In this document: in pieces, positions 3,353 to 35,201 of the stretch
Numbering within the stretch: position 1 is the stretch's first letter
Layout of the letters: every line of letters begins with the position of its first letter
Source of the DNA: a virus
IMG/VR virus record: IMGVR_UViG_3300045988_168437
Strand: one strand, 5' to 3'
Length of the DNA stretch: 64,000 nt
Position numbers and translations under genes: made by a program
Notes under the pieces: generated by a model
Databases searched by the model: none
The model's input: only the letters and a program-made list of their open reading frames with translations
What the model was told of the DNA's origin: nothing

Positions 3353-4150
3353 ATGACAAAGATGTTAAAAAATAGTTACTGGAATCATACAGGAAAATAT
3401 CAAAATGAAAGTGAAGAATTAGAAAAATTAATACCTCACTGGGGTAGAACTACTAACCCTTATATGAACTTATTCATAGTTGCAAGTCAATTATACTATG
3501 ATGTTTATAACAATGGTGGTTGTAATATCGAGGATTGTTATGTTGATGATATTGAAAAATATATAAAACCTTATGCAAAGGAATTAGAAGGAATTAATTT
3601 TAAATGTTCATTAAGAACAATAGTTAATAATCTTATGAACGAAGAAAAATTAGAAAATTTCTTAAATTCCGTTATGGAATTTATTTCTGACAAAGACTTG
3701 TCTTATCGTAAATATTTAGCTTATTTTGATAGTAACAATCACCTTCTTTCTTATGATAAAAAAGAGGGTTATTATGAAATAAGTTTTGGTGAAAAAGAAG
3801 AATTTGAAAGATGGATAAACAACAGAAAAAATTCTGGGTATAAATTAATAGGAGGTATAGTGATGAAATATAGAGTTTGGTGGATACCGCAAATAGGTTA
3901 TGATGGTACTTTTTATGTACCTGTAAATTCTCCAGAAGAAGGACTAAAAATAATGTCAGTATTAGGTGCATATGATTTATTTCAATTAAAGAATAATATT
4001 AAACCAGACTTTTCAAATACAGGTGGCTTAGAAGTCTTTGAAGACGGAGAATGGGTAGATTACTATGATGAAGACGGCAGAGATATAGATGAACATTTTG
4101 AAGAAGATGTGAATATGCAAGATTTTATAGAAAAAGTTTATAATTTTTAG
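3353..4150 (+). CDS. hypothetical protein, possibly two fused modules
   Basis: 265-aa ORF; strong in-frame internal SD AGGAGG 3850-3855 plus ATG 3863 (MKYRVWWIPQ...). Confidence 0.6.
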   Translation: MTKMLKNSYWNHTGKYQNESEELEKLIPHWGRTTNPYMNLFIVASQLYYDVYNNGGCNIEDCYVDDIEKYIKPYAKELEGINFKCSLRTIVNNLMNEEKLENFLNSVMEFISDKDLSYRKYLAYFDSNNHLLSYDKKEGYYEISFGEKEEFERWINNRKNSGYKLIGGIVMKYRVWWIPQIGYDGTFYVPVNSPEEGLKIMSVLGAYDLFQLKNNIKPDFSNTGGLEVFEDGEWVDYYDEDGRDIDEHFEEDVNMQDFIEKVYNF

Positions 4151-31433: not shown

Positions 31434-31544
31434 AACTCAATAGAAAAATAAAAGTTGCCAACTGTCTATTGAGTTAATATAAAAAAGGTATGTGGATGTT
31501 TTAAATAGCTACATACCTTTAATCGTAAAAGGAGTGGTATTTTA

Positions 31545-32348
31545 GTGACATTAAAAGTATTTGAATCTTTTAGTGGTTATGGTTCACAATCTATTGCTTT
31601 AGAAAATATAGGCATTGATTATGAAGTAGTAGCAACTTCTGAAATTGATAAATATGCTATTATTGCTTATGATGCATTACATAGACATAATATGAATACA
31701 GAAGTAGAACAAAAAACAAAAGAAGAAATGGTAGAGTATTTACAAAATAAAAGAATAGCATGGGATTCAAAGAAAGAAAAATGTATGTTGCCGAAGTCTG
31801 AAAAACAAATAAGGCAGCTATATGAAGCCTGTGTTAGAAGTAAGAATTTGGGAGACATAAGTAACATCAAAGTAGAAGATATTCCAAAACACGATTTATT
31901 TACAGTAAGTTCTCCTTGTACTGATTTTTCAGTAGCAGGGAAAACAAAAGGAGCAATGTGGACTTGTAAAAAATGTGAAACTAAGTTTAATCCTTTTGAA
32001 ACAAATTTCACATCGAAATGTCCTAATTGTGGTTCAGAGGAAATAACAAAAACTGCTAGTTCATTATTAGTTGAATGCAGTAAAATCATTCAATATTGTC
32101 GTCCTAAATTTATATTTATGGAAAATGTAAAAAACCTAGTAGGAAAGAAATTTAAACCATTCTTTGATAAATGGTGTGAATACTTAGAATCTCTTGGATA
32201 TACAAATTATTATTCTGTTCTTAATGGAAAGGATTTTGGAATTCCACAAAACAGAGAAAGAGTTTTTATGATAAGTATACACGGAGAGCATACTCCGTAT
32301 GAATTCCCAAAAGGATTTCCTTTGAAATTAAGACTTAAGATATGTTAG
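31545..32348 (+). CDS. DNA (cytosine-5) methyltransferase, N-terminal part (motifs I-VIII)
   Basis: FESFSGYGSQ (I), SSPCTDFSVAGK (IV), ENVKNLV (VI), QNRERVFMISI (VIII); Cys4 zinc-ribbon insertion CKKCETKF...CPNCGS between motifs IV and VI; GTG start. Confidence 0.85.
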   Translation: MTLKVFESFSGYGSQSIALENIGIDYEVVATSEIDKYAIIAYDALHRHNMNTEVEQKTKEEMVEYLQNKRIAWDSKKEKCMLPKSEKQIRQLYEACVRSKNLGDISNIKVEDIPKHDLFTVSSPCTDFSVAGKTKGAMWTCKKCETKFNPFETNFTSKCPNCGSEEITKTASSLLVECSKIIQYCRPKFIFMENVKNLVGKKFKPFFDKWCEYLESLGYTNYYSVLNGKDFGIPQNRERVFMISIHGEHTPYEFPKGFPLKLRLKIC

Positions 32349-34348
32349 AAGATAAAGTAGATGAAAAATATTATTTGCCACAAGAAATGCACGATAGATT
32401 TCTTGCTTTTCCAAAGAACAGACTTAATAATGAAGACTTAGAAGTGATTGGAACTACTGCTCCCAATCCTTATGATAAAGAAGGAAATATAATTTATGAT
32501 AAATGTACTTCTGCATGGTGTTATAGTCCAGATAAATGTATTTCAACTTTATCTGCTAGAGATTATAAACAACCTAAACAGATAGTTGAATCAAATAATG
32601 ATAAATTCGTTTCTAAAAAATACAAAGAGTTTATTGATAAAAACGGATATATCCCAGAGATGTTTAATCCTTACAATTGCAAGGAAGTAAATGATATTTC
32701 TCCAACTCAAACAACTCAATGTGGAAGTACAACAAGTAGTGCTACTGTTTTAAAAACAGAAACAGATAGAGTTATTGTAGAAGGAAATGCATCTAAAAAT
32801 CCAAAATCACAGGCTAATCAAGTTGTTTCGGACAAAGGTATTTCAATGACTTTATGTTCAGGCACTCATGGGTATGCAATGGGATATGTAAAGGAATCAA
32901 AAGATTCTGCAAAAATAATAGAACATAAATTAATGCAAAATGTAAAAGTTAGAAAACATAAAGTAGACATTGAAAAATTAAAAGAAATTTTAAAAGTTCA
33001 GAAACAAAAATTAGGATTAACTATAAATGATATAAGTAATACCTTAAATGTCAATAAAACAACAGTAGAACATTGGTTTAGGAGCGATGATTGTTTTAGT
33101 ATTCCTGATGCAGAAATTTGGTTAGATTTAAAAAAATTACTTCAAATGGATACAGATGAATTCATGGATAAATCTATTATGGAATTTGAAATAAAACCAA
33201 ATGAGTATGATATGACAAATAGAGTTTATGATGAAAATGGTATTTCTCCAACTTTAACGTGTACTGGAGAAAGTGGAGCTAAAAAAGTCCTTCAATATAT
33301 AGAAGAATCAAAACCAATTAAACTTAATGAAAAAGAAAACTTCCAATTCAAGAAAAGTGGAGAGAATATAATAGGAGAATTAAGTGGAGAACTATGGGAC
33401 TCAAGACATGAACAAACAAGAAGAGTATATGATACAAATACGATATCTCCTACTATTCCAACCTCTCAAGGCGGAGGAGTTTGCCCCAAAATATTAGTGG
33501 AAAAACTAGGAAATATATATCCTAGTAATGGGCAAAATGGCAATATATATAGCTCAAATGGAATATCTCCAACAATTTCTGCTGGAACAGGAATAAAAGG
33601 AAATGGTATTGGAAGTAATAATGCTCCTAAAATATTAATAGATAAACTAAATTTTGTAGGTGGAATTGGAGAAAAAGATTGGGCAGGAGACGGCAAGAAA
33701 TTATCAAGAAATTACCCGCAAGGAAATAGAGTATATGACGAAAATGGAATAGCTTGCAGTCAAACCTCTAATGGCGGAGGATTAGGTGGCCCAACTGGAT
33801 TATATTTAACAGATAATAAAGATATAAATCCAATTCGACTAGGTGGAGTTTTTGACGATGAAAAATCAAGACATCAAGCAGGTAGTGTGCGGGATAAAGA
33901 ACAACTATCTCCAACTTTAGATACTGCACAAGGAGGTTATAGAGAGCCTTGTATAGTAGAAAAAGTCCAATTAAAAAATTCGGATATTGAGTTAACTCAA
34001 GAAGAATTACCTTGTTGCGTTGCTAGTCGAGGAAGAAATGTCGATAATCCATCTCGTAGAATCACAGGAGACGATTTGGAACAGAGATTAGAACCAAATA
34101 GAAATAACTGTACAAATACTCTTACAAGTGTATCTAAAGACAATTATGTTATGCAAAGAAATTTCAGAATCAGAAGACTTACTTGTCGAGAATGTTTTAG
34201 ATTAATGGGACTTAAAGATTATCAAATTGATTTAATTCAAAATGCAAAAATATCAGATACTCAACAATATAAAATGGCTGGAAATTCAATAATTGTAGAT
34301 GTTCTTGAATATATTTTTTCTAATTTATTCAAAGGGACTGATTTGTAA
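32342..34348 (+). CDS. DNA (cytosine-5) methyltransferase, C-terminal part (multiple TRD modules plus motifs IX-X)
   Basis: In the -1 frame relative to the N-terminal part (ATGTTAG overlap). At least 8 repeats of the TRD-like module (RVYDENGISPTLT, RVYDTNTISPTIPTSQGGG, NIYSSNGISPTISAG, ...). Ends FRIRRLTCRECFRLMG ... QYKMAGNSI (IX, X). Confidence 0.85.
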   Translation: MLEDKVDEKYYLPQEMHDRFLAFPKNRLNNEDLEVIGTTAPNPYDKEGNIIYDKCTSAWCYSPDKCISTLSARDYKQPKQIVESNNDKFVSKKYKEFIDKNGYIPEMFNPYNCKEVNDISPTQTTQCGSTTSSATVLKTETDRVIVEGNASKNPKSQANQVVSDKGISMTLCSGTHGYAMGYVKESKDSAKIIEHKLMQNVKVRKHKVDIEKLKEILKVQKQKLGLTINDISNTLNVNKTTVEHWFRSDDCFSIPDAEIWLDLKKLLQMDTDEFMDKSIMEFEIKPNEYDMTNRVYDENGISPTLTCTGESGAKKVLQYIEESKPIKLNEKENFQFKKSGENIIGELSGELWDSRHEQTRRVYDTNTISPTIPTSQGGGVCPKILVEKLGNIYPSNGQNGNIYSSNGISPTISAGTGIKGNGIGSNNAPKILIDKLNFVGGIGEKDWAGDGKKLSRNYPQGNRVYDENGIACSQTSNGGGLGGPTGLYLTDNKDINPIRLGGVFDDEKSRHQAGSVRDKEQLSPTLDTAQGGYREPCIVEKVQLKNSDIELTQEELPCCVASRGRNVDNPSRRITGDDLEQRLEPNRNNCTNTLTSVSKDNYVMQRNFRIRRLTCRECFRLMGLKDYQIDLIQNAKISDTQQYKMAGNSIIVDVLEYIFSNLFKGTDL

Positions 34349-34988: not shown

Positions 34989-35201
34989 ATGAAATGTTTT
35001 AGAGGAATAAGTGGTTGTGTGGGATATTCAAATGGAGAATGTCATAGTATAGAGAATTGTAAGTATCAAGATTATTTTTATAATAGCACAACAAATGACA
35101 ACAGTTCAAAATCTACTAACGAATGCAGTAAGAAAGGATTTTGCCCATATAAATCAGGTGATTGGTGTACAGTGGTAAAAAATTGTGCTTATAAAGGTTG
35201 A
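34989..35201 (+). CDS. hypothetical Cys-rich protein
   Basis: 70-aa ORF with 8 Cys. Confidence 0.5.
   Translation: MKCFRGISGCVGYSNGECHSIENCKYQDYFYNSTTNDNSSKSTNECSKKGFCPYKSGDWCTVVKNCAYKG

What the first reader, a model, noticed from the sequence alone, without database searches (positions are those of the whole stretch)
31545..34348. Split, hyper-multispecific C5-cytosine methyltransferase with at least 8 target-recognition modules, a zinc ribbon and an HTH insertion
Motifs I-VIII are in ORF 31545-32348, and motifs IX-X are at the end of ORF 32342-34348. About 600 residues between them contain at least eight repeats of the short signature that marks target-recognising domains of C5-MTases: CISTLSARDYKQP, DISPTQTTQ, GISMTLCSG, RVYDENGISPTLTCTG, RVYDTNTISPTIPTSQGGG, NIYSSNGISPTISAG, RVYDENGIACSQTSNGGG and EQLSPTLDTAQGG. 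Known multispecific Bacillus-phage MTases (SPR, phi3T, rho11s) carry only a few TRDs. There are also two insertions. One is a Cys4 zinc ribbon between motifs IV and VI. The other is an HTH-like segment (LTINDISNTLNVNKTTVEHWF, about 33010-33085). The two ORFs are joined by a frame change: ...LRLK|DMLEDKVDEKYYL is restored by re-reading one base at 32339, and the overlap reads ATGTTAG. The enzyme is therefore a naturally split two-subunit MTase (as in M.AquI), a frameshift-dependent product, or a recent pseudogene.
Basis: partly seen in the sequence, partly recalled or inferred. Interest (0 to 1): 0.7.

Follow-up and report, generated by a model that had tools for sequence, protein, structure and literature searches.

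The report
Frameshifted nine-module phage cytosine methyltransferase
A gut phage carries a DNA cytosine methyltransferase with nine swappable target-recognition modules on one catalytic core; in this contig a one-base deletion breaks it in two, one of several natural lesions and module-loss variants of this gene.

Summary
The sequence observations hold. ORF 31545-32348 carries C5-MTase motifs I-VIII. ORF 32342-34348 carries motifs IX-X. About 600 residues of tandem TRD-like modules lie between them, and all eight quoted signatures are present.

- **Modules:** Seven signatures match each other in a leave-one-out profile test. The first is a different, Dcm-like class. A ninth module (NCTNTLTSVSKDNYV) was missed.
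- **Zn ribbon:** It is a real Cys4 insertion after motif IV.
- **HTH:** It is a predicted Xre-type domain. It is part of a widespread ~130-aa TRD type, not a separate insertion.
- **Split:** It is not a conserved two-subunit design. At least 11 contigs of the same phage population encode one intact 934-aa protein. The window has lost one A (CTTAAAGAT to CTTAAGAT), and this is seen in one assembly only.
- **Other alleles:** In-frame loss of single modules gives 887, 832, 762, 695, 669 and 637 aa proteins. Independent null lesions (Q91*, an A5-to-A6 frameshift, another nonsense) recur across samples.
- **Portability:** Every module has homologues in distant MTases, in different orders.

Verdict: this is an orphan phage multispecific C5-MTase of the SPR/phi3T/H2 kind with an unusually large, actively shuffled TRD array. 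It is recently broken here. No methylation activity or specificity was tested.

The parts
31530..31534 (+). Shine-Dalgarno AGGAG, 10 nt upstream of the GTG start
   Evidence: Read directly from the sequence.
31545..32348 (+). ORF1, 267 aa. It is the N-terminal catalytic fragment (motifs I-VIII plus the Zn ribbon) and ends in two out-of-frame residues (I-C) and TAG.
   Evidence: Pfam PF00145 E 2.5e-49. M.MpeI E 2.7e-24.
31560..31586 (+). Motif I (FESFSGYGS), AdoMet binding
31908..31940 (+). Motif IV (SSPCTDFSVAG) with catalytic Cys125. It is a PCT variant of PCQ.
   Evidence: (C125 invariant).
31965..32030 (+). Cys4 zinc ribbon (CKKC-x14-CPNC) inserted after motif IV, in the catalytic-loop region
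   Evidence: sub-threshold Zn_ribbon_8, HypA and DZR hits; pLDDT 63-88; the same insertion occurs in other subfamilies.
32115..32138 (+). Motif VI (FMENVKNL)
32247..32267 (+). Motif VIII (QNRERVF)
32337..32338 (+). Lesion site. AA here is AAA in intact relatives (CTT AAA GAT ATG). The 1-nt deletion splits the gene 24 residues after motif VIII.
32342..34348 (+). ORF2, 668 aa. It holds the TRD array plus motifs IX-X and starts at native Met267. It has no SD of its own, and its ATG overlaps the ORF1 stop (ATGTTAG).
32339..32593 (+). Module M1: conserved linker (DMLEDKVDEKYYL) plus a Dcm-like TRD core (CISTLSARDYKQPKQIV). It is present in all alleles.
   Evidence: Smith-Waterman against the Dcm variable region, z 4.2, 0 of 500 shuffles; homologues in 58 of 80 distant relatives.
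32594..32758 (+). Module M2 (..NPYNCKEVNDISPTQTTQCGSTTSSATVL). It is a cassette absent from the 832-aa allele.
32759..32908 (+). Module M3 (..QANQVVSDKGISMTLCSGTHGYAMGYV). It is a cassette absent from the 669-aa allele.
32909..33313 (+). Module M4, a ~130-aa TRD. It has an Xre-type HTH sub-domain (32963-33178) followed by the core NRVYDENGISPTLTCTG. It is absent from the 695-, 669- and 637-aa alleles.
   Evidence: 50% identity over 129 aa to Deep Blue gp147, E 4.6e-40; pLDDT above 90. Foldseek hits to Xre, cI and HipB..
33314..33493 (+). Module M5 (..HEQTRRVYDTNTISPTIPTSQGGGVCPKI), related to the phi3T/H2 'RVYSPEGLSPTLTTMGGGHREPKI' TRD
33494..33634 (+). Module M6 (VEKLGNIYPSNGQNGNIYSSNGISPTISAG..). 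It is flanked by a 24-nt PKIL direct repeat and is absent from the 887- and 832-aa alleles.
   Evidence: 51% identity over 37 aa to H2/rho11s third TRD, E 1e-8; repeat D9.
33635..33817 (+). Module M7 (FVGGIGEKDW..QGNRVYDENGIACSQTSNGGGLGGPTGLY). It is HhaI-like and H2-TRD1-like, and S-Q replaces the T-L dipeptide.
   Evidence: HhaI alignment; 58% identity over 57 aa, E 4e-17; absent from the 637-aa allele.
33818..33973 (+). Module M8 (..SRHQAGSVRDKEQLSPTLDTAQGGYREPCIVE), related to the phi3T/H2 F-type TRD. It is present in all alleles.
33974..34159 (+). Module M9 (..ASRGRNVDNPSRR..EQRLEPNRNNCTNTLTSVSKDNYV). It belongs to a different TRD class and is present in all alleles.
   Evidence: z 12.8 against Bacillus phage LY1 gp07; homologues in 59 of 80 distant relatives, in varying positions.
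34172..34213 (+). Motif IX (RRLTCRECFRLMGL)
34262..34306 (+). Motif X (QQYKMAGNSIIVDVL)

Best explanation
The locus is the orphan (no partner nuclease) self-protection C5-cytosine methyltransferase of an uncultured ~140-kb, 28% GC phage from the human gut. Its host is probably a clostridial Firmicute.

**Architecture (shown)**
- The ancestral gene is one 934-aa ORF with a single catalytic core (motifs I-VIII and IX-X).
- A Cys4 ribbon is inserted after motif IV.
- A ~600-residue variable region between motifs VIII and IX consists of nine tandem target-recognition modules.

**Mechanism (inferred from the SPR/phi3T/rho11s/H2 paradigm)**
- Each module, together with the shared core, reads its own short target.
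- The enzyme therefore methylates phage DNA at many different sites and blunts many host Type II restriction systems at once.

**Modules as cassettes (shown)**
- Near-identical alleles lack single modules in frame.
- Some alleles carry hybrid modules formed at the repeated RVYDENGI and PKIL sequences.
- Distant enzymes carry the same modules in other orders.

**The split in this contig**
- Loss of one A (AAA to AA at 32337-32338) splits the gene between motif VIII and the first TRD.
- This is most likely a recent lesion. It is one of several independent inactivating lesions circulating in this phage population.
- Any remaining activity would need two things: re-initiation at the overlapping ATGTTAG, and non-covalent reassembly of the two fragments. 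This is inferred, and any activity is probably low.
For: **Core and context**
- Core motifs and the predicted fold.
- Phage context is DnaB, primase, RecJ, a DnaE-type polymerase, NrdD and an integrase, and no nuclease was detected in the neighbouring ORFs scanned.

**Nine modules**
- The leave-one-out profile is significant for M2-M8.
- The profile is calibrated on H2, rho11s, phi3T and SPR.
- Homology of individual modules:
  - M7, M6, M8 and M5 match SPbeta-group TRDs.
  - M4 matches the sole TRD of Deep Blue gp147.
  - M9 matches the last module of LY1 gp07.
  - M1 matches the Dcm TRD core.

**Cassette behaviour**
- The allele alignment covers 934, 887, 832, 762, 695, 669 and 637 aa forms.
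- DNA repeats lie at the junctions.
- All nine modules are found in distant relatives in permuted order, often at higher identity than the core.

**Lesion**
- The intact allele is on at least 11 contigs.
- It reads CTTAAAGAT where the window reads CTTAAGAT.
- The split allele occurs in one assembly only.

**Other lesions in the population**
- Q91* in 3 or more samples.
- An A5-to-A6 frameshift in 4 samples.
- CGG to TGA.
- Further truncated products are listed.

**Possible residual activity**
- M.AquI is naturally two-chain (PMC3404938).
Against: - No methylation data exist for this enzyme or any close relative, so the number of active specificities is unknown.
- AlphaFold gives about 20 pLDDT for seven of the nine modules. 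There is therefore no structural support that they fold as TRDs.
- M2 (T-Q) and M7 (S-Q) lack the canonical T-L/I/V dipeptide. By analogy with the inactive TRD in rho11s they may be silent.
- GGCC, CCGG, GCGC and GDGCHC are strongly under-represented in the window. That is not what full protection at those sites would predict, although 5mC deamination could also erode them.
- The single-base deletion cannot be told apart from an assembly error without the reads.
Confidence: 0.7

Rival explanations
1. The frameshift is a sequencing or assembly error. The real phage in this sample carries the intact 934-aa gene.
For: - The split allele is seen only on one 140,164-bp MEGAHIT contig, which appears as ENA and IMG copies.
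- Apart from the missing A, the gene differs from intact L001 by 28 substitutions, 19 of them synonymous. It shows no other damage.
Against: - A one-base deletion in a run of only three A is an unusual error for an Illumina consensus.
- Independent, clearly real lesions of the same gene recur across samples: the A5-to-A6 allele in 4 samples and Q91* in 3 or more. A genuine lesion is therefore unremarkable here.
Confidence: 0.22
2. The split is a selected two-subunit methyltransferase, as in M.AquI. The N-terminal catalytic chain and the C-terminal TRD chain are translated separately and assemble into a fully functional enzyme.
For: [quoted passage not shown]
- ORF2 starts at native Met267.
- The ORF2 ATG overlaps the ORF1 stop, which would allow translational coupling.
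Against: - The split is not conserved. Every other allele of this gene, and all 120 best homologues, are single ORFs at this point.
- There is no Shine-Dalgarno sequence in front of ORF2.
- Engineered splits at this position retain only about 4% activity.
Confidence: 0.05
3. Programmed -1 ribosomal frameshifting or transcriptional slippage restores the 934-aa protein from the split gene.
For: The two frames join seamlessly to give the conserved LRLK-DMLEDKVDEKYYL sequence.
Against: - There is no X XXY YYZ slippery heptamer.
- There is no long homopolymer. The run is only AA.
- A TAA stop in the ORF2 frame lies directly upstream (32336-32338), which leaves a one-codon window for any shift.
- Relatives encode the junction in a single frame.
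Confidence: 0.02
4. The array is largely a graveyard. Only two to four modules are active TRDs, and the rest are pseudo-domains or linkers kept by drift. On this reading the enzyme is ordinarily multispecific, not hyper-multispecific.
For: - rho11s carries a TRD that differs by one residue (GGG to GEG) from the H2 and phi3T version. From my own knowledge of the Trautner-lab literature, rho11s lacks that specificity.
- M2 and M7 lack the T-L dipeptide.
- AlphaFold confidence over most modules is very low.
- The commonest allele, on about 62 contigs, is the shorter 669-aa form.
Against: - Every module has homologues in distant enzymes at 39-69% median identity, often above the identity of the catalytic core, and in different positions. 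That argues for purifying selection on each module as a unit.
- All cassette deletions are in frame.
Confidence: 0.3

Closest known systems
Multispecific C5-MTases of Bacillus SPbeta-group phages (M.SPRI, M.Phi3TI, M.Rho11sI, M.H2I)
   Same: - These are phage-encoded orphan enzymes with one catalytic core and tandem, non-overlapping ~40-60-aa TRDs between motifs VIII and IX.
- M7, M6, M8 and M5 are sequence homologues of their TRDs: 58%, 51% and 40-45% identity, E 4e-17 to 1.5e-5.
- The same linker, (E/D)xLExxVDEKYYL, follows motif VIII.
   Different: - The window enzyme has nine modules. Here I see two to four in the Bacillus enzymes, which have two to three published specificities (from my own knowledge).
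- It has extra TRD classes: the HTH-bearing M4, the Dcm-like M1, and M9.
- It has a Zn ribbon after motif IV and PCT in place of PCQ.
- It has an M.MpeI-like insertion between motifs II and IV.
- Overall identity is only about 35%.
M.BssHII / M.phiBssHII (Bacillus stearothermophilus prophage multispecific MTases)
   Same: From my own knowledge, these have the highest published number of targets for one C5-MTase (five). M.phiBssHII has TRDs at separated locations. Relatives of the window enzyme (P0062, P0081) likewise carry modules both N-terminal to motif I and in the variable region.
   Different: In the window enzyme all modules sit in the canonical variable region.
Bacillus phage Deep Blue gp147 and Bacillus phage vB_BceS_LY1 gp07
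   Same: - Both carry the same HTH-containing TRD as M4: 50% identity over 115-129 aa, E 1e-34 to 1e-40.
- LY1 gp07 also shares an M9-type module.
   Different: - Deep Blue gp147 is a 419-aa enzyme in which this is the only TRD.
- LY1 gp07 has about four modules.
- Neither has the Zn ribbon.
M.AquI and M.EcoHK31I (natural two-chain C5-MTases), and engineered split M.SssI and M.HhaI
   Same: [quoted passage not shown]
   Different: Here the split is a non-conserved 1-nt deletion in one assembly. Relatives are single-chain.
M.MpeI / M.SssI (CpG MTases; PDB 4dkj)
   Same: - M.MpeI is the best structural and sequence match for the catalytic core: phmmer E 2.7e-24, Foldseek E 1.6e-19, TM 0.62.
- The helical insertion between motifs II and IV is shared.
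   Different: M.MpeI is monospecific with a single TRD and has no Zn ribbon.

Membership tests
DNA (cytosine-5) methyltransferase (Pfam PF00145) | Motif I FxGxG (AdoMet pocket) | tested here: met
   FSGYGS at residues 9-14. Pfam and PDB alignments.
DNA (cytosine-5) methyltransferase (Pfam PF00145) | Motif IV Pro-Cys catalytic dipeptide | tested here: met
   SPCT. C125 is invariant in 62 homologues. Thr replaces the usual Gln, as in other FPCTD[LIV]S subfamilies.
DNA (cytosine-5) methyltransferase (Pfam PF00145) | Motifs VI (ENV), VIII (QxRxR), IX and X (GNS) | tested here: met
DNA (cytosine-5) methyltransferase (Pfam PF00145) | Transfers methyl to C5 of cytosine in DNA | not testable with these tools
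   Needs expression followed by bisulfite, EM-seq or nanopore sequencing.
Multispecific phage C5-MTases (SPR/phi3T/rho11s/H2 type) | One catalytic core with an enlarged variable region between motifs VIII and IX | tested here: met
   About 607 residues lie between motifs VIII and IX.
Multispecific phage C5-MTases (SPR/phi3T/rho11s/H2 type) | Two or more tandem, non-overlapping TRDs sharing the conserved core (..VY..G.SPT[LIV]..GG..) | tested here: met
   Seven modules pass the leave-one-out test. The profile finds the TRDs of H2, rho11s, phi3T and SPR.
Multispecific phage C5-MTases (SPR/phi3T/rho11s/H2 type) | Sequence homology of TRDs to those of the type enzymes | tested here: met
   M7, M6, M8 and M5 match H2, rho11s and phi3T at E 4e-17 to 1.5e-5. 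M1-M4 and M9 have no counterpart in those four enzymes.
Multispecific phage C5-MTases (SPR/phi3T/rho11s/H2 type) | TRDs are separable. One can be removed while the frame and the other TRDs are kept. | tested here: inconclusive
   Natural in-frame cassette-loss alleles exist. Their activity is unknown.
Multispecific phage C5-MTases (SPR/phi3T/rho11s/H2 type) | Methylates several unrelated target sequences | not testable with these tools
   No methylome data are available.
Multispecific phage C5-MTases (SPR/phi3T/rho11s/H2 type) | Phage-borne, without a cognate restriction endonuclease | tested here: met
   The gene sits in a phage replication module. The neighbours have no nuclease domains.
Natural two-subunit C5-MTases (M.AquI type) | Two-ORF arrangement conserved among relatives | tested here: not met
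   All relatives are single ORFs at this point. The intact 934-aa allele is 99% identical.
Natural two-subunit C5-MTases (M.AquI type) | Own translation signals for the second chain | tested here: inconclusive
   There is no SD. The ATG overlaps the upstream stop by 7 nt, so coupling is possible.
Programmed -1 frameshift genes | Slippery heptamer or long homopolymer at the shift site | tested here: not met
   The sequence is CTTAAGATATG with an in-frame TAA just upstream in the ORF2 frame.
Xre/lambda-cI-type HTH domain (sub-domain of M4) | Five-helix lambda-repressor-like fold | tested here: met
   - AlphaFold pLDDT is above 90 over the helices.
- Nearly all of the listed 50 Foldseek PDB hits (including the top 20) are Xre, cI, HipB, P22 c2 or ImmR, with TM 0.65-0.74 and probability 0.97-1.0, but E is only 0.08-0.4.
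Xre/lambda-cI-type HTH domain (sub-domain of M4) | Match to the Pfam HTH_3 or HTH_19 profile above threshold | tested here: not met
   The window sequence gives no HTH hit. 10 of 22 homologous modules hit HTH_3 below threshold, best E 3.8e-5. phmmer against PDB gives E 0.2-0.7.
Zinc ribbon | Two CxxC knuckles forming a beta-ribbon, conserved in relatives | tested here: met
   The motif is CKKC-x14-CPNC. The same insertion, with conserved cysteines, occurs in P0071, P0079, P0088, P0099, P0105 and P0117 (in P0115 the third Cys is not in a CPxC knuckle). Pfam hits are below the gathering score. Metal binding was not tested.

The most novel reading that the evidence does not exclude
The gene may be a population-level 'master-key' system. 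In this reading, a single-core methyltransferase protects against nine or more unrelated targets (relatives carry about 14 modules). Recombination at the conserved TRD cores continually re-assorts the repertoire. Short-homopolymer indels and C-to-T nonsense mutations switch the gene off, and these may be driven by the enzyme's own 5mC marks. The balance would be protection from Type II restriction against exposure to methyl-dependent (Type IV) restriction. The HTH-bearing TRD and the Zn ribbon in the catalytic loop would be new DNA-reading elements for C5-MTases.
Probability: 0.3. Interest if true: 0.75.

Novelty: new variant of a known kind. Interest (0 to 1): 0.5.

Why it matters
**An open structural question.** Multispecific C5-MTases have been a textbook curiosity since the 1980s. 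To my knowledge, how several TRDs share one catalytic centre has never been resolved structurally, and only enzymes with two to five specificities have been characterised.

**A ready-made allelic series.** This phage population offers natural alleles that differ by single cassettes:
- 934, 887, 832, 762, 695, 669 and 637 aa forms;
- hybrid TRDs formed at the conserved core.

With these, each module can be assigned to a motif by subtraction. One can also test whether hybrids create new specificities.

**Tools and prediction.**
- A nine-target methyltransferase would help pre-methylate DNA to transform restriction-rich Clostridia.
- It would also help predict phage host range.

**Fitness cost.** About one contig in five carries a broken copy. 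This points to a real cost of heavy 5mC marking and can be tested against Type IV restriction systems.

Tried and rejected
- **Megablast of the locus against GenBank phages.** No match. The phage has no cultured close relative.
- **phmmer of M1-M3 against PDB.** Only spurious hits.
- **AlphaFold of the full enzyme.** The core and HTH are confident, but seven modules sit at about 20 pLDDT. The model says nothing about how TRDs dock. The Foldseek search with the whole model only recovers the core.
- **Host assignment through GTDB genomes.** Only 37-38% identical relatives turned up, in Candidatus Fimenecus and Acutalibacteraceae MAGs. The host remains unknown.
- **Classical Trautner-lab papers** (PMC450048, PMC1171429). 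Not held in the library. The published specificities of SPR, phi3T, rho11s, H2 and BssHII are quoted from my own knowledge. Full-text searches found no paper on C5-MTases with more than five TRDs.
- **Assigning targets to modules.**
  - All four GGCC-methylating Bacillus enzymes share only their last module.
  - phi3T has one other module, which therefore goes with GCNGC.
  - M8 and M5 resemble that module at only 40-45% identity. I do not claim a target for any window module.
- **Site-frequency analysis**. It is ambiguous, because restriction avoidance and 5mC decay both deplete sites.
- **Programmed frameshift.** Rejected on sequence grounds.
- **C-to-T nonsense mutations.** They lie at GCAGC and GCGG/CCGC. 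This is suggestive of 5mC deamination, but it rests on two events only.

Full report
**1. What is in the sequence**

An AGGAG lies 10 nt before the GTG.
- Pfam PF00145 matches ORF1 at E 2.5e-49 and the C-terminus of ORF2 at E 3.6e-11.
- phmmer against PDB aligns ORF1 with M.MpeI (E 2.7e-24) and M.HhaI. It aligns ORF2 residues 607-662 with HhaI motifs IX-X.
- Motifs I, IV, VI, VIII, IX and X are all present.
- Motif IV reads PCT instead of PCQ. Other subfamilies share this variant, and the Cys is invariant in 62 homologues.
- A CKKC-x14-CPNC ribbon sits between motif IV and the T-x-S-x-L-L element that precedes motif VI.
  - The same insertion, with conserved cysteines, occurs in other subfamilies.
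  - Pfam zinc-ribbon hits are below threshold.
  - AlphaFold confidence there is 63-88.

**2. The frame change**

- Joining the frames gives a 934-aa protein.
- A database search returns P0001, which is 934 aa, 99% identical and covers 100%. Further 934-aa members bring the total to at least 11 contigs, the longest 138 kb.
- At the junction the intact relative reads CTT AAA GAT ATG. The window reads CTTAAGATATG, so one A of three is missing at 32337-32338.
- The window is part of ENA ERZ27261314 contig k119_117257 (140,164 bp). The split proteins are on record only for contigs of exactly that length, as ENA and IMG copies.
- There is no slippery heptamer and no long homopolymer. A TAA in the ORF2 frame lies immediately upstream. 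ORF2 has no Shine-Dalgarno sequence, but its ATG (native Met267) overlaps the ORF1 stop.
- The split is therefore a non-conserved single-base lesion, or less likely an assembly error. It is not an M.AquI-like design and not a programmed frameshift.
- The break falls 24 residues after motif VIII. This is the region where fragment complementation works best. M.SssI fragments split there give about 4% activity, and M.AquI is naturally two-chain (PMC3404938). Some residual activity therefore cannot be excluded.

**3. The gene is repeatedly broken in this phage population**

- Q91* (CAG to TAG) occurs in at least three samples.
- An A5-to-A6 insertion gives 171-aa and 478-aa products in four samples.
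- CGG to TGA in module M8 occurs on a 136-kb contig.
- Further truncated products end in out-of-frame residues. One is a 5' deletion that fuses upstream sequence to module M5.
- By my rough tally of the contig counts, about one contig in five carries a disrupted copy.
- The window's lesion is one more of these.

**4. The variable region is an array of nine modules**

A ninth, NCTNTLTSVSKDNYV, precedes motif IX.
- In a leave-one-out profile test, M2-M8 each score 7-27 bits against a profile of the others, and no shuffle out of 300 reaches those scores. M1 and M9 do not fit this class.
- The same profile finds three hits each in H2 and rho11s and one each in phi3T and SPR. It misses their shared last module, so it undercounts.
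- Module-by-module homology:

| Module | Best match | Identity / score |
|---|---|---|
| M7 | first TRD of H2 and rho11s; also the HhaI TRD | 58% over 57 aa, E 4e-17 |
| M6 | third TRD of H2 and rho11s | 51% over 37 aa, E 1e-8 |
| M8, M5 | the phi3T/H2 module RVYSPEGLSPTLTTMGGGHREPKI | 40-45%, E 1.5e-5 |
| M9 | last module of Bacillus phage LY1 gp07 | z 12.8 |
| M1 core | Dcm TLSARYYK | z 4.2, 0 of 500 shuffles |

- M2 (T-Q) and M7 (S-Q) lack the T-L/I/V dipeptide typical of TRDs and may be silent.

**5. The 'HTH insertion' is part of a TRD**

- M4 is about 130 aa. It is 50% identical over 129 aa (E 4.6e-40) to the variable region of Deep Blue gp147, a 419-aa MTase in which it is the only TRD.
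- AlphaFold predicts a confident five-helix domain (pLDDT above 90) flanked by strands, followed by the NRVY..GISPTLT core.
- Nearly all of the listed 50 Foldseek hits in PDB, including the top 20, are Xre, cI, HipB, P22 c2 or ImmR domains, with TM 0.65-0.74 and probability 0.97-1.0. E is only 0.08-0.4 for this small domain.
- Half of the homologous modules hit Pfam HTH_3 or HTH_23 below threshold. The window copy itself gives no such hit.
- A profile of this module finds 334 representative clusters at E up to 1e-30 among 1.84 billion proteins. 67 of the 120 best homologues carry its EHWF motif.

**6. Modules behave as cassettes**

- Alleles with otherwise 97-99% identical sequence differ by in-frame presence or absence of modules:

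| Allele | Difference from the 934-aa form |
|---|---|
| 887 aa | lacks M6 |
| 832 aa | lacks M2 and M6 |
| 762 aa | M4 head joined to M7 tail at the RVYDENGI repeat |
| 695 aa | lacks M4-M6 |
| 669 aa (commonest, about 62 contigs) | M2 head joined to M5 tail |
| 637 aa | lacks M4-M7 |

- The DNA carries matching direct repeats at the junctions: 24 nt at 83% identity around M6, and 51 nt at 73% identity between the M4 and M7 cores.
- In 80 more distant homologues (core about 37-56% identical), every module has counterparts: from 6 relatives for M3 up to 66 for M4.
  - They appear in different orders.
  - In P0062 and P0081 they also appear N-terminal to motif I.
  - Module identity there (M2 75%, M6 78%, M8 70%) often exceeds core identity.
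- This is what portable, individually selected recognition units would look like. It also shows the window enzyme is not unique, since P0062 has about 14 modules.

**7. Context**

- The window is 28% GC and almost all genes up to about 58 kb are on one strand.
- It encodes DnaB, a primase, a RecJ-like nuclease, a DnaE-type polymerase (38% identity to Geobacillus virus E3; 35% to phiCD211), NrdD and an integrase.
- No nuclease is detectable in the neighbouring ORFs scanned.
- No close relative exists among cultured phages or GTDB genomes.

**8. Limits**

- Nothing here measures methylation.
- AlphaFold is uninformative for seven modules, at about 20 pLDDT.
- The target sets of the classical enzymes are quoted from my own knowledge, because the original papers were not available. 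I do not assign targets to window modules.
- GGCC, CCGG, GCGC and GDGCHC are depleted in the window while GCWGC is twofold enriched. This can be read either way.

**9. Verdict**

This is a very large multispecific-type phage C5-MTase, but the 'split' is a recent one-base lesion of a single-chain gene, and the HTH belongs to a TRD.
- It is a new variant of a known kind.
- Its main value is the natural allelic series of TRD cassettes and the evidence for frequent loss of the gene.

Noticed in passing
window 1-64000: GATC is completely absent, with 0 occurrences where about 136 sites are expected. CCGG is also absent. GGCC has 6 sites (O/E 0.26), and GCWGC is about twofold over-represented. The total lack of GATC points to strong selection by a GATC-specific restriction system in the host range.
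   Followed up: partly
P0062 (1198 aa), P0081 (894 aa) and relatives P0089, P0094, P0107, P0112: These homologous MTases carry TRD modules both N-terminal to motif I and in the canonical variable region. P0062 has about 14 modules, which recalls M.phiBssHII.
   Followed up: partly
P0067, P0072, P0092, P0095, P0096, P0101: Several homologous MTases carry intein or Hint domains (PF14890, PF14528, PF13403) inside the methyltransferase.
   Followed up: no
L007 2465-2470; L010 about 4050-4056 (equivalent to window 31815 and 33893-33895): Both verified nonsense alleles arise by C-to-T changes. One is at the first C of GCAGC (a GCNGC site). The other is on both strands of GCGG/CCGC. This is compatible with deamination of 5mC laid down by the enzyme itself, but it rests on only two events.
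   Followed up: partly
window 31487-31522: An inverted repeat, AAAGGTATGT..ACATACCTTT, lies between the upstream 140-aa ORF and the MTase start. It could be a terminator or a regulatory hairpin. The simple terminator scan did not call it.
   Followed up: no
window 34989-35201: A small Cys-rich ORF (70 aa, with repeated C-x-x-C-like spacing) lies downstream of the MTase and is conserved in all related loci. It has no family match.
   Followed up: no
L005 (Bacillus phage Deep Blue 74062-77451): Deep Blue carries three adjacent C5-MTase genes (gp147, gp146, gp145). It spreads specificities over separate genes where the window phage stacks TRDs in one gene.
   Followed up: no
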